Notes under the pieces: generated by a model
Told to the model about the DNA's origin: nothing
The model's database searches: none
The model's input: the letters and a program-made list of their open reading frames with translations, nothing else
NCBI GenBank assembly: GCA_035084275.1
Contig: CM068749.1
Coordinates: forward strand, 12,710,001-12,774,000
Reading direction: 5' to 3'
Length of the DNA stretch: 64,000 nt
DNA from: Hydrolagus colliei
Lineage: Eukaryota
Program-made: the position numbers and the translations under genes
Shown: piece by piece, positions 11,091 to 51,762 of the stretch
Layout: each line of letters starts with the position of its first letter
How positions within the stretch are numbered: position 1 is the stretch's first letter

Positions 11091-12611
11091 AATAAATGAA
11101 TTAAAATTATAATGCAATTTATAGCCTTTCTTCATAGTGGATCTCAGAAGTATTTGCATGCAAAATGTATGGTTTGAAAAAAAACTTGGTATTAATGGAG
11201 TGAGGGAAAGCTGTGAGGTTTCATTTCTGACTGCTTTTCAAACATAGTGGCTTGAGTTGTTATTGATGTCAGAAAACGTCAGCCTCAACAAATATGACCT
11301 CTCAATGTATGCATTATGTTTTACATTACACAAATGTGTAATTGTATTAAACATTGAATGATAAAGGGTGAATTTAACAGGGTGATTGGTGTTTGTGGAA
11401 GTGTATGGTAGCAAGGGAATGGTACAAGGAACAAACAAACCTTGTTTTTCTTTCAGTCACTATTCAGTTAGATTTGAAGCCACGGCAGTAAATAAATTTT
11501 TAGTCATGCTCATTGTTCCATGCAATCCCAAATTTACACATATTGCCTGACTGTAACTCAAGTCTAATGGGTCATAATTTGATCCCCTGAATGTGCTATT
11601 ATAAAGTTTGACACCTAAAGATTTTAGCCTCTGTTCCAAAATATCAGCAAGGCACATTTTCATTATCAGCAATGCCTATTTGAAAGGTTACAGTCATTCC
11701 CCACAAACACTTCATTATCGTGTTCGGATAAGAGCTGCAGTGCCATCTGGCACTTGCTGAAAGTGAGGAAGACTGGAGAAATGTTAAGGTAATCTATAAT
11801 GTCATTTTCTGTAGCCTCTTCATTGTATTATTCAGCAGATCTCTTAGGAACCCTCCACCACAGCCTCTTAGAGATGATGATTACCTACTTTGATGCTCAG
11901 GACTGAAGGAGTTTTAAAAATATGAGAGGTCGAACTTTGAAAATAGTCAGATATGATAGCTGTAAGCCAAGCTCGTAAAAATCTAGTAAAATAATACAAT
12001 TCAGAAAGCTTTGCAACCTGACCCAAATAGGATCTTTGGGTGCTTAAGTTGGTTAATTTGAATGTTTCCTTTATGCTTCAGGTATTGTTGCAGAAACACC
12101 TGATACCTTTTTGGTGTGTTCGCCCTTCTTTGGGAGTGATGTGGTGTTTTAGTGGGGATTTAAATTTTTTTCCCCCATAATATATTTTGAGAATGGGTGT
12201 TAAAATGATGCAAGTAAGACTATGCATAACAGTATTTACAAATTATAGGTGTGTTATTACTGTCATTCTACCTTCAATGCGTCTGCACTTCACTGCTGGG
12301 GGGAAATGTAAGAGTTTTATTGAGTGGATTGTAGTATAGAGAAAGCCACTTTACAAACAGTTATTTTTAAAAATATATATATTTTATTGAGTTTTCTGCA
12401 TTAAAACTTCAGTACAGAGCAGTGGAGAATAAGTCATCACATTTCGAACCCAGCCTCTTTCATAGTAATGTACAGACTTCTTAATAAATGTTTTCCCTTA
12501 TGTTTCATGCAGAATTATAACACTGATCTCGCTGCACAGACTTCCCTGGATTGCACATGATGGTTCTGGAATTCTCCAACTTTGGAATTGATGAAGCAGT
12601 TGCTAAAATCT

Positions 12612-12694
12612 GGGCCACAGTTGCATTCATTGTTCAGCGAGCTTTACCTCATAGTTAAACCCACCGACAGCAATGAATGTTGATTGTGACCTTT
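12612..12694 (-). ncRNA. mir181b: pre-miR-181b hairpin (mir-181b-1-like)
   Basis: Reverse complement of 12659-12681 = AACAUUCAUUGCUGUCGGUGGGU (canonical miR-181b-5p); 3p arm CUCGCUGAACAAUGAAUGCAA (12641-12621); flanks AAAGGUCACAAUC and CUGUGGCCC as in mir-181b-1. Confidence 0.97.
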
Positions 12695-12799
12695 GCTGGG
12701 ACTTGCTTCATTTTTGGATTCCCTTAAATTACCTGTAATGATTGTGTGAGCATCTGCCACAACAGATAGGCTCGGGCAAGCTCGCCCAGAAGCAGGTGA

Positions 12800-12888
12800 A
12801 GGCTGGCTACAAGGTACAATCAACGGTCGATGGTTTCTCCAATAGCATCAAACTCACCGACAGCGTTGAATGTTCCCTGAAACCACCG
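12800..12888 (-). ncRNA. mir181a: pre-miR-181a hairpin (mir-181a-1-like)
   Basis: Reverse complement of 12852-12874 = AACAUUCAACGCUGUCGGUGAGU (canonical miR-181a-5p); reverse complement of 12813-12834 = ACCAUCGACCGUUGAUUGUACC (miR-181a-3p/miR-213). Confidence 0.97.
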
Positions 12889-19377: not shown

Positions 19378-19686
19378 GGGTTCCTGTTGCTCAGTGGTTA
19401 GAGCACTTGTCTCACAAGCAAGAGACCTGGATTCGATTCCCAGCAGGGCAAAACCTTTGGCAAGTTTTATTACTCCACATGCCTGATAATAATCCCTCAA
19501 GAAAAAAAAAATTGGTCATGTTTCAATCCCCGATTGTTTGTGGGACACTGCTGAGCACAATTGCCTGCCGCGTTTTGCCAACAAATATGCAGTCAATTCA
19601 CTTTACAGTGTGTTCTGCAAAGCGCTTTGGGATGTCTAAAAGATGTTTAAAGTGCTATATCAAGTGCAAGGATTATTATTATTATT
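19378..19686 (+). mobile_element. Near full-length tRNA-derived SINE
   Basis: A box tgctcagtggtt, anticodon-arm-like cttgtctcacaagcaag, B box ggattcgattcc, body, 3' gtgctatatcaagtgcaagg(ATT)n. Confidence 0.9.
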
Positions 19687-36810: not shown

Positions 36811-39755
36811 TCACCATCATGACAAAGGTATTAAAAAGACCAATTTGGGAGAAACCACTGAGTGATCTTTAAACAACATCCCTTCTAGTTTGCCTTTAAT
36901 TTGCTCATCCTTTCCTTTGATTTTCTCATGCTTCCAATATATGGAACCATTTTCCATTCAATGTGGTAGTTGGGAGGTTTGATGAATAGGTTTGCCTGTT
37001 TGCGAGATCCTGCAAGATTTATAAAGATTCACACACTATTGTTTCATTCACACGCTGTTGTTTATATTTTCCCCTTCTTCAAATTATGGGACACAATGAG
37101 ATAATATGACCTTTACTTGGAGTTTTACTGCAAGATGAGGGGTGGGGCAAACTAAACGAACCAGGTGTAAGATTTAAAATCTTTTTTTAATAATCCGAAA
37201 GAGACTGTTTTCAAACATGACTCATGCGCTGGGCAGTTTCAAATCCTGGGCCATTCAAAACAAAGTCATGATTAATGTTGTGGTGAGTTTTAAAGGAATG
37301 TTAATCACACATTACATCCACTGATACTGGTAATAACAACATAGCAAAATCGTAAAGTGTACCTCCAGAAAAATGCTTTGAATCAAACTAATGCTGTCAT
37401 TATCACAGACCCTGGACATGTTCCACATGAATAGAACAGGGCAGACATGTTTGGGCATTTATCAGCGAGGAATGGAATGATTCAGATGCAGTCATTGTAT
37501 AAAATGGAGCATTATGACTAAATACAATGAGCTCTGACAGCAAGGAAGGCACTGACTGCTGCAAAATAGCTTTTTGGCTGATGGTGGTGTTTGATAACTG
37601 GTTCCAATTGCGCGAGAGAATTTTTACGTATTTTGAATTCTCTCCATAGTGCAGAACTGGCCCACAGACAGTTTCAGCAAAAAAAAAGTTCTTTATTTAT
37701 AATTCATGCAGTTCAGAAGATACCCAGCTTTCTGCAACCGACCTAACTTGTTTTACAACCAGTCTCGAAACCCAGTGATATTTCAAGCCAGTCAATCTCT
37801 CCCCACCCACCCCACCAGCCCACCAACTTGCCACTTTGAACTGTGATCCATGCAGTAACCTTTCTAGCATAAGGGTGTTGCCCAATTAGACAGAGGGTTA
37901 TCAATAACTTGCACATCTGTGATGGTTTCAATCGTATTTTTAGCCGGACAATTTCTGTGAGCCTGTCAGTCAGCCAAACAAAATTGCTTGACTGAACTTT
38001 TCATTTTTTTTTGCGAAACCCGAGCAGACAAAACTGTCAAACTTTGACAAATGCTGTCCTTTCAGGTTGAGGTTTTTTTTAAAAAGCTCTTGAGTTTCTT
38101 ACAGGAATCTGTTTTCTTCTGGTAACTGATTAATTCACATAAATCTTCAGAGAGTGCTCCCGGCAAAGAAAACAACTAGTTGATGTACAAGACTTAACCT
38201 AATGATAACCAGCACAAATTATTATAGCTTAGCATTTAGTAATCCAATTCAGTATCAACCGGTACTCTGACCTTATTGACCTGTGTTGTAGAGGCTTTTG
38301 GAGGTGCCGAAGCAGCAACCTTAGAGCCGTATTATAATATTGCAGGAAGCAGAAAGCTGGTAATAGATATTAAAGTACAAATTTCATTCTGAGCCTGCCA
38401 GGAAACCTCGTCTTCCTGTCACTTTGTGCGAGTCATTTTTTTTTCATTATAGGATGTCTTTTCAATCTTACGCTGTGGCTTTCATCAAACTTATATTTGA
38501 AGGATGTGATTAACTGGACAGCATATGTTGTGTTAATCTGAATGAACCAAATCAGAACAACCCAAAGCAGACAATCCAAAGTCCCTTTTACTGCTTTGTT
38601 CCACTTCCCCTCTCCCCCCACCCCACACACTTTTTTTTAGCATATCGGTATTATGTTGAAAACGATATTTGATCAATTTCTTTTCTGACTTAAGGTTTTT
38701 TTTAAAAAAAATCAATCAGAACTATGTGACAACGGTTGAAAGAAACCGATTTTTATGAAGTTCGATTCCAAAAGGATTCTGAGTTACTGATGTCACATCC
38801 AGTTAATGCCAGATCTTAAATTTCCCTGCTCCTGTGGTAAGGAAGTGGATTAAAAATTGATGAAAGCTACTCCTATAAAGATTGAAATGAAACACGACCC
38901 TCGCAATGATTTTAGAGTGCACAGTGCGAGATGTTACCAGGACATTATTATTGAATGCAACCCACATCCCTGGCTGCTAGAGACTCGTAGTCTGACCTAA
39001 CGTTTTCCAAACCAAACCTAGTCAAGTCTCACCAATCTCTGATTAATGTACTATCAAACCAACAGGCATTTGGAATACGGCGTAGGGTAGAATAATACCT
39101 CCAATCTCACAAGTTCCTCTATTGTATTTCATTTTATATTTATTAAACCTCTTCTGAGAGAATGGGGGCTGAAATTGATATGAGATCATTGACCACAAAA
39201 GTGGCCCAAGGGGAGATGTAGAAGTCGTCGAGAGAGATGGAAGATTTCACCGTGGAAGGAAACAGAGGAGTAAGTAAAGGAGATTAGAGGGTTGGTACTG
39301 TGCAGACGGACTGTAATGAGAGACTGGGGAATACAGCAAGGCGGTATTGTGACGGGGGTGAAAAAAACCCATCAACAAGTCTGCCATTTAAAGACCATTA
39401 TTAGAGCAGGCCATAGACTAGCAGTAATGTGACAGAGTTTGAAATTTCCACTTAAATTAAATTGGTGGCTTTTCGTTTTGTCGGTCGATGAATGGGTTAT
39501 TTGTTGATGAAGTATCTACTGTTCAGACAGTGAAACATTATGTCCGTCACATAATGAAGAGTTAGATTCAGTCGTGTTTACTCAAGCTTTCCTTTAATTC
39601 TGTTCAGAGTCAATTGGTGTGATTGTGCCACCTTGCTGTTTGGTTTAGAAGACCCGACCGACTAAGTTACGTTGTGTAAGGTATACAGTAAGGAAGGTTT
39701 GGCTTCAATTTGTTTTGGGGCTCAAATTATGCTAACTGTGATTTTATTTTCTTAC

Positions 39756-40140
39756 CGCCCCCCACCTCCCAAAATCTTCTAGAAATGCGACTGAAAATGA
39801 ACTCTGTTTCTCGGATCATTATCAAGGATCGGGCATGAATTAAAAATAATGATTGATTAGAACTTAGAAGTGGTTCCCCGTTCATTCGGGCGACAGAAAC
39901 GTCCTCTGTCATCTCTCCCTCTCTCTGTGTCGGTGCAGCTAAAGGGCATGATCTTGCGCCCGGTGTGTCTGTCTGCGTCCGGTCCATTGCAATGGACGCC
40001 CCAGCGAGGGTCCTTCAGTGAGCTCCGCTTCAAACTGGTGGATATGAGACCAAGCGTGTGTCTCCGCTTACACTTCCCATTCAGAAACTGTGATTGAGCG
40101 ACATGCTGGAGTTGGGAGTCGGAGTTGCAGACGGTCTCAG
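39756..40140 (-). other. Candidate first exon of minus-strand host transcript
   Basis: Donor GCG|gtaaga at 39756/39755; lies just below CCAAT and GC boxes in a CpG-rich zone; 5' end is a guess. Confidence 0.35.
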
Positions 40141-41800
40141 AATCACCGGCTGAATCAGCCAGCCAATGGCGCACTGGGAAAGGAGGCGGGATGAAAGCGC
40201 CATCAGTTGCCCCCGTTACAATTTTCATCCCCACCACTCCTTCTCTATCAACCTTTCACAACCGATTTGAATGCAATCGGTCAGGGGACCGAGGAAACCC
40301 CCCCCCCCCCCACCCCCGTTTGCCGTGTGTCCCGTCACCTGGCGGTAAATGCGACTGAGATTGATAGCGCGGCTTCCCGCTGCTAAAATCTTCTTGCCAG
40401 GAACCCTGTGATTAATAAGCGGAGTCCGAAAGCTCACTCCAAGCCAACGATCCTATGTAAACCAGTTTAAAGCTTTCGACGATGCGTCAGAAAGCTTTTG
40501 TTGTTGAAGGAGTGAGGGGGGAGGGGAGGGGGGGGGGGGGGTGAAAGAGCTCAGGTACAGTGTGTGGACTTATTTAGTTATTGCCATATTGAATCTTTAT
40601 CTGCATTTCCATCGTGTGATTCTTGTTCACAAGGTGCAGGCGCTCCCCGCGGGTATTTAACCCCAGGTTTTGAGTTTATTCTTCGCGATTAAGTCATCAT
40701 CGCGACGCGAAGATTGATAACAATTTTAACCTTTGAAATCCGAGCCTTCCCAAAAAGCTGCACCTATACAGAGACAGACAGGAGGGTTTGAAAGGAACGG
40801 GGTCTCAATGGCGTGTACATTTTCTCTAAGCAAACAATTTGATCATCTTGTTAAGAGTGTATCAATGGTGTCAGGTCCTGGAGTGCGTCCATGGCATTAG
40901 ATCATTTCAAACCTCAGTCCGGTGCTGATGCTATCATATCACGTTTATAAAGAGGTAATGCCAGTAAACACAGGCACACTGAACACAGGGAGCAGCTTCC
41001 TGGCAGCTTTACAAAACAGTCTTGTAATTTAATATTATATCTGCGAGCCAGTGATGAATGCCAATTAGCTGCCCAGTGCCCACTAAGCACTTGATGAAAC
41101 TGTATTCTCGTGTCATTTATCTGCCGTTATGCATGTTTATTAGCCTCGTTCCATCTGAATGGCTTTTCAATTTTCAGCGAAAAGTTGCAGCACCTCCTTT
41201 AAGCGTCGCTCGGCCTCGACCAGTTACTGTAAACGGTCAATTACCGAGGCTCTCCTGAAACTGAAACATCAGACGTGCGGTTCACAGTCGCTGCGGGTTT
41301 GTTTGGTCGGGTACCAACCAGGGCATTGGCAAAAACTCAGCTTGAACTAACTGCCCGTGACGGGCAATGAATGTAGGTATAGTCGCAGTTCTGCTGTGTC
41401 GAGCGAGTTCCCTATTAGTTGATAACCCGCAGTGTATCTTGTGAATTAACAAGCGGGGTTTGATTAGTAGGTCGCAACTGGCGTGTTAAGAGATTATTTC
41501 CTTATTTCCCTGTAAAATACTCAGGCCGTGCACGAGCTGTGATACCAAACACTCGTCATTTGCCTCGGCAGCCTCTGCGTCTGTTCCGTTCGAGGATTAG
41601 CGTTCCAGACACCCAGCCTCCCGTCGCTTGTCAGGTAATCATTGACAACTGAAGCTACAAATCCCCGCTGAGATGTCGATGGCCGATTCCGTGTGTTTGA
41701 GTGCCGCCATCCTCTACATCCCGCCAGCGGGTGAAAGCTTTGCGATGCCGCGTGTCTCGCGTGAAATGACTTTGCATTCGCGCCTGCTTATCTGCGTGTT
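39870..41800. promoter_or_regulatory. CpG-rich promoter/enhancer region
   Basis: CpG density visibly above flanks; CCAAT box (agccaatggc ~40160), GC box (ggaggcggga ~40182), no TEs recognised. Confidence 0.6.
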
Positions 41801-42937
41801 CAAAAGACAGGTGTGTCCCTAATTACATTGATTTACACTAACCAGTGACTTGATGTCATCTATCCCCCCCCCCGTGCAGCACTGGTGTAAGAACCACGTT
41901 CATAAATCACAGTGACAACTGGGGAGTTCAGAGCCGCAAATGGGTTCCATGCCTCTCTGTGGCTGGTTGGATTCTGTATTCGCACTTCATCTGGCCATCT
42001 TGTTTTGTTACTCCCAGGCCTTTACCACTAACCTATGGTGTCCTCCTGCTGCACCGAAACAAGGAGAATAATGAGAACGTTCCCATTGCTTTTCCTGCTA
42101 GGATCACCCAACACGTGGCTTTCAGGGTTCACAGCTGAGTGGGAAGAATCCTTGCCCTCAGTGACTGGTCTGACCCATCAGATCCTACTGCCTAAACAAG
42201 CTGGCTTCTCTGTCGGGAACAGTGCCTCAGAGCACCGTGCATTGAAATCTGTCTTGGGAACCAAATTACTGAGGAATGCATCTCCCAATATTCTGTGGCC
42301 AGCTCAGCTCCAAGGAGTTCCCTCTTACCCCCCCCCTTCCCTCCCAAGGAAAGTGGGATATTAATATTAATAACATTACACATGCATTTTCAGAATTAAG
42401 TACTGTACACACCACCTCTTTGAAAATATTTTTGTCTGAAATAGTCCGAACCATATAGAATGTCAAAGATACCACATTGGTTCAATTGAGTGTAAAACTA
42501 TTTGAGACAAGTAAAGTCACTGTATTTGAAAGGAAATTGCTCATGGACTAAAATAATGACTGCTGTTGTGTGTGTGTGTGTATATAAACACTATTATATC
42601 TACTGTCAGCGAATTCTTGCTTGTTCGTTTCATCTTGTTCAATCTGTTATCTGATCCAATCTTGGAAAATTTTGATGCACCAAACAGACCACCAGCAGTG
42701 ACCTGTGCAAACCTTATGGCTCCATTTTGAGGTTTCACAGTTTGTCGTTTGCTGAGTTTGAATCCAGTGTTTTCCATCTGTCTTCATTTTCCTTCTGCAA
42801 CTCACTGACCTCAATATGAATTATATTTTCATAACAAAGTATCTATTCCCATTGGAAAAATATGCTTTGAGGCTTCTATTGGACGTCACAAAAAGGTGAT
42901 CTAACTTCTACTGGGAATGTATGCAGCTAAATTTAAC

Positions 42938-49945: not shown

Positions 49946-50131
49946 CTCCCATCGTTTCCTACTTTCCCAGCCCGGCCACACTAATCTGCGTGTCTCTGCC
50001 TCGGGGTGAACACGTTGCATAATGTGCCTCATCTACCGCGATGCCGGAGAGAGCCGACAATGATGTCTTCAGTCACGTTGCCGTCACGCTCGGTTGGATC
50101 GCTGACCCCAAACCGCAGAGACACGAGTGGG
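49946..50131 (-). other. Candidate non-coding exon (186 nt)
   Basis: Acceptor ttgtttttcctacag and donor GAG|gtaagc; stop codons in all three frames; CpG-rich. Confidence 0.5.
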
Positions 50132-50694
50132 CTGTAGGAAAAACAACCGAAAGCGATGTGTCAGAACACATTCCTGTAATTTCCTGCCGCATTAAATTAA
50201 TTAATAAAGCGCTGTCCCCTTGAATGTGCATCCCGCGCCCTGCGATTTCACCTGTGAAGCTCACATCTTGACTGCTGTGATGTAGTTACTACACTCCCAA
50301 GATATTACCATATCCGAAGGGCACTTTTTATATACTGTACTATATAATTAAATATATACAGTATATATACACACGGTATATATATATATATATATATTTA
50401 TATAAATCCAAGTTGACATTGTTTGTTACCGAGACATATAGAGGCTTACAATTTGAGAGATACTGTACTCATAAGCGCTAAACACAGTTCTGGTTCGTTG
50501 GTTTGGCCCTTTCAGTGACCAAATAAAAACTATTTAATGTGATAGGGGCTTCCTTCAAGTGTTTTAATTCCGGGCAAAGTGAGGAGGTGCTTTTTTGTTT
50601 ATTTTCCGCCGTCCTCGAAGAGCAATTTGGTTGCAAATTGTTGCCCTTTTTCCCCCCTGGGATTTCAAACGGCAATGTTTCCATTCATTATCAT

Positions 50695-50768
50695 GGGGAG
50701 AGGGGGGGGGGGGGGGGGATTAGGATGGGGGGGGGGGGGGGGAGAGGAGTGGGGGGGGGGGGGGGGGG
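50695..50768 (+). repeat. Clustered poly-G tracts (G-quadruplex potential)
   Basis: Three long G homopolymers separated by short spacers. Confidence 0.8.
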
Positions 50769-51399
50769 TCGATCTATTTGCTTTTGTCTCATTATTCCCT
50801 CTGAGTCATGTCTTGCCAAGTGTTCTGTGTTGCTAAGACGGTTGGGGAGGGAAGGAGGGAGAGACAGACAGACAGGGAGAGAGTCGTTTTTTCAGCTTCT
50901 CCCAAACCCTGACATTTCTGTCAACTCAGGAAGATTCAAAAGGGGCTAAGGAAAGGGGGGATGTACGCGTACATTGCCTGCCACTTATGAATCATAACTC
51001 CCAGACTCTCGGAGCGCTGTTTAGATTATAGGAGGACTTAAAGAGCTTACTGGTCCAGGGAAGTTATCTTTTGTGTAATCAATTAGGGCAGTGGATGTGT
51101 GTGTATGTGTGTGTGTAAAAAAAACATCTGGAAAGTTCTCTGAGAAACCTGTAAGAAAGAACCAGCAACACAACTGCAGAACAGTCATAAAGCAACAAAG
51201 AAATTAAGTTTTAAATCCAGCGCCTTGAGTGTGAAACGAATACAGCTCCTGTCCTATACAGTTATACAGTACAATGTAAATCGTCTGATCGTTTGGCCTC
51301 AAATCTGTGCTCGAGGCTTGCCCTTTAAATCGCAGATTTTTTTTTTTGGGGGGGGGATTCTTTGTCTAACTACTTTCTTCCTGCTCCTCTCTCTTCGTG

Positions 51400-51762
51400 T
51401 TCCAACGCCAGCAATATCTTGGCAGAAGCCAATCCCCCAGAGTTGCTGCCGCCGCGGCTTCACCGCCTCCTTTGGGCGGCGTCTCCATTCGTTGAGTTAC
51501 CAACAAACCGTTAATTAATCAATGTGACGGATGCGGGGAGTGAAGGGTTCCTTTGATAGCTCGCCACTGAAACTGGGCAACCCGAGATCACAATACAGTC
51601 GGTGGGAAAAGGAACGGCTTTATTGCAATAATTAGTAACCGATGCGACTGACAAGTCCAACCACCCAAACTTCCAAATGACAGTACATACATTCTCTGAA
51701 TGCTGATACTCTCAGATGTACGAACTCCCCCCACTTTCTCCCCCCACCCCCCCCCCCCCACT

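What the first reader, a model, noticed from the sequence alone, without database searches (positions are those of the whole stretch)
12612..12888. mir-181a/mir-181b bicistronic cluster on the minus strand
Seen: two tandem hairpins whose 5p arms (193 nt apart) are exact miR-181a-5p and miR-181b-5p, in order a then b along the minus strand. CNNC motifs occur about 15-19 nt past each 3p arm. Known: the short spacing, the miR-213-type 3p arm and the AAAGGUCACAAUC/CUGUGGCCC flanks fit the a-1/b-1 cluster rather than the more widely spaced a-2/b-2 cluster in NR6A1. Inference: orthology to the c/d cluster cannot be excluded from this window alone. The cluster is invisible to the ORF track and explains the whole locus.
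Basis: partly seen in the sequence, partly recalled or inferred. Interest (0 to 1): 0.7.

Follow-up and report, generated by a model that had tools for sequence, protein, structure and literature searches.

The report
miR-181a-1/b-1 beside a second NR6A gene
This is an ordinary pair of miR-181 microRNA hairpins, most likely the a-1/b-1 pair, in what is likely a chimaera (cartilaginous fish) genome; the surprise is next door, where an unbroken second copy of the developmental regulator NR6A1, likely lost in bony vertebrates and predicted to be repressed by miR-181, lies between the pair and NR5A2.

Summary
Observation confirmed. Two minus-strand hairpins pass the Rfam mir-181 cut-off (76 and 68.6 bits against 45.5), with 5p starts 193 nt apart. 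Gene order settles the label: V-ATPase G and CD45/PTPRC lie to the left and NR5A2 to the right, so this is a-1/b-1. The only other cluster found is 3.9 kb-spaced and antisense inside NR6A1 (a-2/b-2). The cluster itself is ordinary.

Outside the window, between the cluster and NR5A2, lies an unbroken nine-exon, 439-aa NR6A1 paralogue (58% identical to this genome's NR6A1). The two loci are collinear: mir-b, mir-a, two shared non-coding elements, a homologous 16-nt first exon, NR6A, NR5A. This points to an ancient block duplication (likely vertebrate genome doubling). Orthologues turned up only in cartilaginous fishes (C. milii, Heptranchias, Pristiophorus; a DBD-only model in Heterodontus). Its predicted 3' UTR holds three miR-181 seed sites. 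The protein tree alone cannot date the duplication, expression was not shown, and NCBI already labels the orthologues 'NR6A1-like'.

The parts
12813..12874 (-). predicted pre-mir-181a-1 (62 nt); 5p arm 12874-12852, 3p arm 12834-12813
   Evidence: Rfam RF00076 76 bits; fold z -3.35; arms identical to human miR-181a-5p and -3p in PMC4342183 Table 1; ends predicted from a 2-nt overhang
12620..12681 (-). predicted pre-mir-181b-1 (62 nt); 5p arm 12681-12659, 3p arm 12641-12620
   Evidence: Rfam RF00076 68.6 bits; fold z -5.92; ends predicted
12792..12798 (-). two overlapping CNNC motifs, +15 and +18 after the predicted a-3p cut
   Evidence: about 12% chance per 3-nt window locally
12599..12602 (-). 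CNNC motif +18 after the predicted b-3p cut
39501..42000 (.). unique CpG-rich stretch 27-29 kb upstream of the cluster on the minus strand; candidate promoter or enhancer of the primary transcript (inferred only)
   Evidence: CpG o/e 0.72-0.91, GC 0.46-0.50; no repeat hit within the 584 kb held
50001..51500 (.). second unique, weakly CpG-rich stretch; candidate regulatory region (inferred only). The neighbouring genes and shared elements lie outside the window and are listed with contig coordinates under Noticed in passing and in the full report.
   Evidence: CpG o/e 0.67 in its first kb; no regional repeat hit

Best explanation
The two hairpins are miR-181a and miR-181b precursors lying between CD45/PTPRC and NR5A2, so most likely the a-1/b-1 cluster, and they are likely cut from one minus-strand transcript into mature RNAs predicted to repress mRNAs with miR-181 seed sites, among them the neighbouring NR6A1-like gene. 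SHOWN: family membership, hairpin folds, gene order, an unbroken NR6A1 paralogue between the cluster and NR5A2, collinearity with the a-2/b-2 - NR6A1 - NR5A locus on C32, and three seed matches behind the paralogue's stop codon. INFERRED from established miRNA biogenesis: Pol II transcription, Drosha/DGCR8 cropping helped by CNNC, Dicer cleavage, 5p loading; a and b share one seed. INFERRED history: a block 'mir-181 pair (antisense) - NR6A - NR5A' was copied before sharks and bony vertebrates split, most likely in the vertebrate genome doublings. One copy became a-2/b-2 - NR6A1 - NR5A1. In the other, bony vertebrates likely lost the NR6A gene and left a-1/b-1 intergenic, while chimaeras and some sharks kept it, started from the short internal first exon downstream of the cluster.
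For: Rfam and folds. CD45: best PDB hit E 8e-29 versus 1.5e-16 for the next PTP. NR5A2. V-ATPase G, the only hit of that family in the genome. The human order ATP6V1G3-PTPRC-MIR181A1/B1-NR5A2 is recalled; 1q31.3/1q32.1 for a-1/b-1 and antisense-in-NR6A1 for a-2/b-2 are in PMC12054384 and PMC4342183 (passages). On C32 the other cluster (5p starts 3.9 kb apart) lies between NR6A1 exons at 8982820 and 9069361. Of 10399 blastn hits between the two regions, 8 survived the repeat filter and 7 of these 8 are collinear and same-strand: mir-b, mir-a, two non-coding elements, three NR6A exons. Homologous 16-nt ATG exons with GT donors follow the second element in both loci. NR6A1-like clade 100/100, all chondrichthyan. 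Three homologue searches (120 of 179, 34 of 34 and 120 of 140 hits listed) and one search of 50% representatives (150 listed) gave no bony-vertebrate member. C. milii has a miRDeep-called mir-181 pair with starts 204 nt apart in a 169-kb intergenic interval (supplement of PMC3964593), like the 178 kb between the last CD45 phosphatase exon found and the NR6A1-like start here; orthology to that pair is inferred from these numbers only. Seed sites: 3 in 945 nt against 0.19 per kb background; 0 of 617 tiled windows had three.
Against: No expression or processing of these hairpins was shown in this species. The protein tree does not date the duplication: all-NR6A1 monophyly has support 25/0, 45/0 and 53/62, and a chondrichthyan-only clade is not rejected (p-AU 0.26, 0.27, 0.18). 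The paralogue sits on a long branch (0.73-0.82 versus about 0.05), so its function may have shifted or be relaxing; the Heterodontus model is DBD-only. The 3' UTR is predicted; its 945-nt length was set after seeing the first AATAAA, over 3 kb P is only 0.02, the background is genomic rather than UTR sequence, and the tiling may split the UTR. One of the 8 filtered blastn hits is not collinear. Absence from bony vertebrates rests on protein collections, not on genome searches. Hairpins lack basal UG and apical UGU.
Confidence: 0.85

Rival explanations
1. The cluster is the orthologue of mammalian mir-181c/d, not a-1/b-1.
For: Short spacing fits c/d as well (66 nt in human); the b-type 5' flank is also found in human d (recalled). 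No third cluster was found in this genome, although C. milii has three pairs and one single locus.
Against: Neighbours are CD45, V-ATPase G and NR5A2. No nanos zinc finger on C16 (3 matches, on C1 and C15). No other miRNA family at the gathering score in the window or in the 150 kb to its left. Both a arms equal human a-1.
Confidence: 0.03
2. The cluster is a-1/b-1, but the NR6A1-like gene is a younger duplicate made within cartilaginous fishes that came to lie beside NR5A2.
For: Found only in chondrichthyans; the AU test does not reject a chondrichthyan-only clade (p 0.18-0.27).
Against: It lies at the exact paralogous position and orientation between a mir-181 pair and an NR5A gene, with a shared non-coding element 73 kb upstream of its start. 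The flanking pairs (a-1/a-2, NR5A2/NR5A1) exist in bony vertebrates too, so the block predates the split. A later copy would have had to replace or insert into the matching slot.
Confidence: 0.1
3. The cluster is still intronic and antisense in the NR6A1-like gene through upstream exons that were not detected, exactly as a-2/b-2 is in NR6A1.
For: NR6A1 on C32 has three upstream coding exons left of its cluster as well as the short internal first exon; the two loci are otherwise collinear.
Against: tblastn with the N-termini of seven NR6A proteins found the three upstream exons on C32 (E 7e-10 to 3e-6) and nothing comparable in 584 kb of C16. The C. milii models P0008/P0009 start with the short exon, whose exact match lies 124.5 kb right of the cluster. 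Non-coding 5' exons cannot be seen this way.
Confidence: 0.15
4. The hairpins are intact in sequence but silent or unprocessed in this species.
For: No read evidence for the hairpins was obtained; basal UG and apical UGU are missing.
Against: Both a arms are unchanged against human; C. milii small-RNA sequencing called a pair with this spacing.
Confidence: 0.02

Closest known systems
Human MIR181A1/MIR181B1 cluster (1q31.3-q32.1)
   Same: Order a then b, short spacing, identical a-5p and a-3p, PTPRC and ATP6V1G-type gene on one side and NR5A2 on the other (human order recalled).
   Different: An unbroken NR6A1 paralogue lies between the cluster and NR5A2; none is known in human, where NR6A1 is described as alone in its subfamily (abstract of PMC10909835). 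Loops differ; the b-3p arm differs at one position from the human arm (recalled).
mir-181a-2/b-2 in NR6A1, next to NR5A1 (human 9q33; here G000:C32)
   Same: Same block layout and strands: antisense mir-181 pair, two shared non-coding elements, short first exon, NR6A, NR5A. NR6A1's downstream region also has an miR-181 8mer at +191.
   Different: Spacing 3.9 kb versus 193 nt; intronic there, upstream of the coding span here. The C32 gene has let-7 and miR-196 7mer matches after its stop, the C16 gene has none in 3 kb (seeds recalled).
NCBI 'NR6A1-like' models of Callorhinchus milii (XP_007885551, XP_042190907), Heptranchias perlo (XP_067845709), Pristiophorus japonicus, Heterodontus francisci (XP_067893723)
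   Same: One clade with the C16 gene, 100/100; 91%, 81% and 77% identity for the first three species.
   Different: These are automatic labels. I found no paper treating them as a separate ohnologue linked to mir-181a-1/b-1 and NR5A2, but the most relevant survey (Fonseca et al. 2020) could not be read. Their gene neighbourhoods were not checked. The name NR6A2 is already used for insect HR4 (table in PMC7827873).

Membership tests
mir-181 (Rfam RF00076) | Score above the gathering threshold over the whole model | tested here: met
   76.0 and 68.6 bits versus 45.5, model positions 1-83
mir-181 (Rfam RF00076) | Family seed at nt 2-8 of the 5p arm | tested here: met
   Seed as given in PMC12054384 is at nt 2-8 of both arms
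canonical microRNA gene (criteria recalled) | Hairpin with paired arms of about 22 nt and 2-nt overhang geometry | tested here: met
   62-nt precursors, z -3.4 and -5.9
canonical microRNA gene (criteria recalled) | Reads from both arms with homogeneous 5' ends | not testable with these tools
   No small-RNA run was offered; indirect support from the C. milii miRDeep table
canonical microRNA gene (criteria recalled) | Microprocessor motifs (basal UG, apical UGU, CNNC); optional features | tested here: inconclusive
   CNNC at +18 in both; UG and UGU absent
mir-181a-1/b-1 paralogue | Between PTPRC and NR5A2 | tested here: met
   human order recalled
mir-181a-1/b-1 paralogue | miR-213-type 3p arm | tested here: met
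   22 of 22 nt
mir-181a-2/b-2 paralogue | Antisense inside an NR6A1 intron, wide spacing | tested here: not met
   Met instead by the C32 cluster
mir-181c/d paralogue | Neighbours of the chromosome 19 type (NANOS3 region; recalled) | tested here: not met
   No nanos on C16; neighbours are PTPRC and NR5A2
NR6A nuclear receptor subfamily (neighbouring gene) | DBD and LBD closest to NR6A1/GCNF; groups with vertebrate NR6A1 against tunicate and amphioxus NR6A | tested here: met
   vertebrate clade 99/98
ohnologue of NR6A1 from vertebrate genome doubling | Lies in a collinear paralogous block | tested here: met
   7 of 8 filtered hits collinear, plus NR5A pair
ohnologue of NR6A1 from vertebrate genome doubling | Gene tree places the split before the shark/bony divergence | tested here: inconclusive
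   Best trees agree but without support; alternative not rejected

The most novel reading that the evidence does not exclude
NR6A1 is not a singleton in jawed vertebrates: a second, fast-evolving NR6A ohnologue survives in chimaeras and some sharks beside mir-181a-1/b-1 and NR5A2, is decaying in other sharks and is gone from bony vertebrates. The mir-181 - NR6A - NR5A block, with a shared promoter element and miR-181 sites in both NR6A 3' UTRs, is an ancestral regulatory unit, and the mammalian MIR181A1/B1-NR5A2 gene desert is what is left after the gene was lost. This has not been described as such.
Probability: 0.45. Interest if true: 0.55.

Novelty: new member of a known kind. Interest (0 to 1): 0.33.

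Why it matters
The miRNA pair itself is a routine annotation. The neighbour matters more. A 2024 review calls NR6A1 alone in its subfamily and a candidate driver of vertebral number, and lists co-regulation of Nr6a1 with its antisense miR-181 pair as an open question (PMC10909835). A surviving paralogous locus gives a natural comparison: the same miRNA pair and promoter element, but the pair outside the coding span and a 3' UTR with miR-181 sites and no let-7 or miR-196 7mer. It would also explain why one mammalian mir-181 cluster is intronic and the other intergenic, and points to non-coding elements worth looking for near human NR5A2.

Tried and rejected
1) Third (c/d-type) cluster: Rfam family search (4 matches; only 57 of 166380 candidates scored), a seed-anchored exact pattern (11 matches, 4 in the known hairpins; the other 7 do not form a mir-181-type stem; control pattern gave 14) and a 3p-anchored pattern (2 matches) found none. 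Only two NR5A-level hits with an NR5A2 exon. This is not proof of absence: the assembly may be incomplete and the patterns allowed no mismatch. 2) Flank sequence as a paralogue marker: rejected. 3) Upstream coding exons of the NR6A1-like gene left of the cluster: none found. 4) Expression: no RNA holder listed. Laying four runs on 10 kb around the DBD exon was swamped by repeats; X4 had mean depth 3.4 in the bin with the exon, in one orientation, X3 (same sample) had 0, and the one X1 contig there runs on into the intron; the organisms may be other species, so I take nothing from it. Reads over the hairpins remain untested. 5) The first tree (24 rows) used a last exon misplaced by one base; corrected and the trees rebuilt on 14-17 rows, leaving out several teleost, sturgeon and tetrapod rows of the first set. 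6) 18 of 18 window ORFs of 120 aa or more: no Pfam match above a curated cut-off; two weak hits (E about 0.006) dismissed. Shorter exons were not scanned. 7) A DR7 retinoic-acid element idea for the shared promoter element found no support in PMC4446430 (0 occurrences of DR7). 8) Earlier scan findings: none returned. 9) Literature on a second chondrichthyan NR6A gene: searches listed none; I saw listings only, plus passages of the papers cited. Fonseca et al. 2020 (doi 10.1016/j.ygcen.2020.113527) is not held and may describe the gene; bioRxiv supplements (2021.09.01.458616) were not seen and may list the Mir-181 paralogues.

Full report
Observation. The window is G000:C16:12710001-12774000 of a 1.0-Gb genome. 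Rfam finds two mir-181 precursors on the minus strand at 12885-12804 (76.0 bits) and 12692-12611 (68.6 bits), cut-off 45.5, and otherwise only one tRNA-like match. The 5p arms start at 12874 and 12681, 193 nt apart. The cores fold with z -3.35 and -5.92, and 0 of 200 shuffles did as well. Both arms of the first hairpin are identical to human miR-181a-5p and miR-181a-3p (miR-213) as printed in Table 1 of PMC4342183 (table passage seen). For the second hairpin I have the Rfam consensus only; its identity to human miR-181b-5p is recalled. CNNC lies at +15/+18 (a) and +18 (b) after the predicted 3p cuts, against a local chance of about 12% per 3-nt window; basal UG and apical UGU are absent.

Organism. 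Proteins next to the window are closest to Callorhinchus milii records (91% over 402 residues; sister in the trees at 100/99), so the genome is likely a holocephalan. This is an inference from similarity.

Which paralogue. Three searches of the genome found four mir-181 hairpins in two clusters. The second cluster, on C32, has 5p starts 3.9 kb apart and lies antisense between NR6A1 exons at C32:8982820 and 9069361; 5 of 7 tblastn matches of catshark NR6A1 to that gene are 91-100% identical, and the other two run into introns. This is the a-2/b-2 arrangement described in PMC12054384 (passage). Around the window's cluster: a two-domain tyrosine phosphatase at C16:12658076-12669698, about 53 kb to the left, whose best PDB match is CD45 (E 8e-29, next 1.5e-16); a V-ATPase G exon at C16:12578029; and NR5A2 at C16:12994896-13068170 (160.9 bits to LRH-1, 99.5 to SF-1). 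That is the order and orientation I recall for human ATP6V1G3-PTPRC-MIR181A1/B1-NR5A2; no paper search gave me the full order in print. No nanos match is on C16. So the cluster is a-1/b-1. Spacing alone cannot separate a-1/b-1 from c/d (61 and 66 nt in human), and the 5' flank of human a-1 is matched better by the C32 copy (9 of 9) than by this one (7 of 9). The NR5A gene on C32 is called NR5A1 by position only; its last exon scored higher to LRH-1 (106 bits) than to mammalian SF-1 (84).

How it works. By established biogenesis (inferred, not shown here) one minus-strand transcript is cropped into two 62-nt precursors 131 nt apart, and both 5p products carry one seed. In mouse, miR-181a/b-1 is high in thymocytes and tunes T-cell receptor signalling through phosphatases (PMC6428341, abstract and passages); whether that holds in a chimaera is untested. 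Two unique CpG-rich stretches at window 39.5-42 kb and 50-51.5 kb are candidates for its regulatory region. In C. milii, small-RNA sequencing of 16 tissues with miRDeep called seven mir-181 loci, among them a pair with starts 204 nt apart in a 169-kb intergenic interval (supplement tables III.1-III.2 of PMC3964593). That is probably the orthologue; I matched it by spacing and interval only. C. milii's third pair (starts 529 nt apart) has no counterpart that I could find in G000.

The neighbour. A nuclear-receptor DBD search showed the same pattern behind both clusters: a one-exon DBD, then a split DBD. On C16 the first is an NR6A1 relative (PDB E 2e-39, next 6e-26). Its nine coding exons span C16:12847390-12937832, 8 of 8 introns are GT-AG and the 439-aa frame has no stop. 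It is 91% identical to C. milii 'NR6A1-like', 81% and 77% to Heptranchias and Pristiophorus models, and 55-58% to NR6A1 proteins, including this genome's own. These form one clade at 100/100 on a long branch. Three homologue searches and a search of 50%-identity representatives (one held proteins rescored; nine looked up) added only a DBD-only model from Heterodontus, which joins the clade. No bony-vertebrate member appeared; not all hits were listed.

Collinearity. blastn of 240 kb of C32 against 584 kb of C16 gave 10399 hits; 8 remained after dropping everything repeated within either region, and 7 of the 8 are in the same order and strand: mir-b, mir-a, a 70-nt element (80%; C16:12774686, C32:9014995), a 76-nt element (82%; C16:12847191, C32:9036949), and three NR6A exons. 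Behind the second element both loci have a 16-nt ATG exon with a GT donor in phase 1, at C16:12847390 and C32:9037148; the C32 version matches the short N-terminus of several fish and frog NR6A1 records. The element holds the same 19-nt pair of nuclear-receptor-type half-sites in both copies (consensus recalled, function unknown). NR6A1 also has three upstream coding exons left of its cluster; none was found on C16. So the a-1/b-1 cluster lies 124.5 kb upstream of the paralogue's coding span, at the position that is intronic in NR6A1. Since the mir-181 and NR5A pairs also exist in bony vertebrates, the block must be older than the shark/bony split, and the simplest reading is a genome-doubling copy whose NR6A gene was later lost in most lineages. 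The gene tree does not prove it: NR6A1 monophyly is in the best trees but unsupported, and a chondrichthyan-only duplicate is not rejected (p-AU 0.26, 0.27, 0.18).

Possible targeting. Within about 370 nt of the paralogue's stop codon are two miR-181 8mers and one 7mer-m8 (+119, +179, +362). Against 0.19 sites per kb in the region, P is 8e-4 for the 945 nt up to the first AATAAA-type signal and 0.02 for 3 kb; 0 of 617 tiled 945-nt windows had three, and the seed match is one of only three 7-mers occurring three times there. NR6A1 on C32 has an 8mer at +191 and let-7 and miR-196 7mers, which the paralogue lacks in 3 kb (those two seeds recalled). In chicken germ cells miR-181a* is reported to lower NR6A1 (passage in PMC10048776), which concerns the 3p arm, not the 5p seed tested here. 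The UTR and the repression are predictions.

Against and untested. No expression evidence was obtained for the hairpins, and the lay on the paralogue's DBD exon was uninformative. Loss in bony vertebrates rests on protein collections. The paralogue is already in NCBI under an automatic 'NR6A1-like' label, and the 2020 survey of chondrichthyan nuclear receptors could not be read (reference seen), so it may be in print; my searches listed no paper on it, and a 2024 review describes NR6A1 as having no close homologue (abstract).

Verdict. The finding as given is real and ordinary: a conserved mir-181a-1/b-1 cluster, new member of a known kind. Interest comes from the retained NR6A paralogue beside it. 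Overall 0.33; 0.55 if the ohnologue reading holds and is undescribed (probability about 0.45, limited mainly by possible prior description).

Noticed in passing
G000:C16:12847390-12937832 (+) (loci L026-L035), beyond the window's right end: Unbroken nine-exon, 439-aa NR6A1 paralogue between the cluster and NR5A2; orthologues found only in cartilaginous fishes; three miR-181 seed matches at +119, +179, +362 after its stop.
   Followed up: yes
G000:C16:12658076-12669698 (+), 12578029 (-), 12994896-13068170 (+): Flanking genes that fix the orthology: CD45/PTPRC phosphatase exons, a V-ATPase G exon, and NR5A2.
   Followed up: yes
G000:C32:8988148-8992142 (L001, L003): Second mir-181 cluster, 3.9 kb spacing, antisense in an NR6A1 intron (a-2/b-2); its a-3p arm differs at 3 of 22 positions from the human a-1 3p arm.
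   Followed up: yes
G000:C16:12774686-12774755 (686 nt past the window end) and C32:9014995-9015064: Paralogous non-coding element, 80% over 70 nt.
   Followed up: partly
G000:C16:12847191-12847266 and C32:9036949-9037018: Paralogous element in front of the short first exons, with an identical 19-nt pair of nuclear-receptor-type half-sites 7 nt apart; possible auto- or cross-regulation site.
   Followed up: partly
whole genome G000: No third mir-181 cluster and no third NR5A gene found, whereas C. milii has three mir-181 pairs and a single locus in a published table; loss or assembly gap.
   Followed up: partly
G000:C32:9037148: NR6A1 has an internal 16-nt first exon as well as three upstream coding exons (8953414, 8972485, 8982761), so likely two N-terminal isoforms, one starting on each side of the miRNA cluster.
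   Followed up: partly
protein P0178/P0287 (Heterodontus francisci): NR6A1-like models of 112-137 aa with a DBD only and several changes at conserved positions; looks like a decaying copy, or an incomplete model.
   Followed up: partly
window 19380-19450 (+): tRNA-like Rfam match (50 bits); similar weak matches recur in the left flank, so probably the head of a tRNA-derived SINE.
   Followed up: no
G000:C1:36415270 and 36419465: Two nanos zinc-finger matches 4 kb apart on the same strand, a possible tandem duplicate; a third on C15.
   Followed up: no
L072:585-1325 (+): Thr/Ser/Pro-rich repeat ORF upstream of the CD45 phosphatase exons, possibly an expanded mucin-like extracellular exon.
   Followed up: no
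G000:C35:775870 and 778157: Two nuclear-receptor DBD exons with identical scores 2.3 kb apart; local duplicate or assembly repeat.
   Followed up: no
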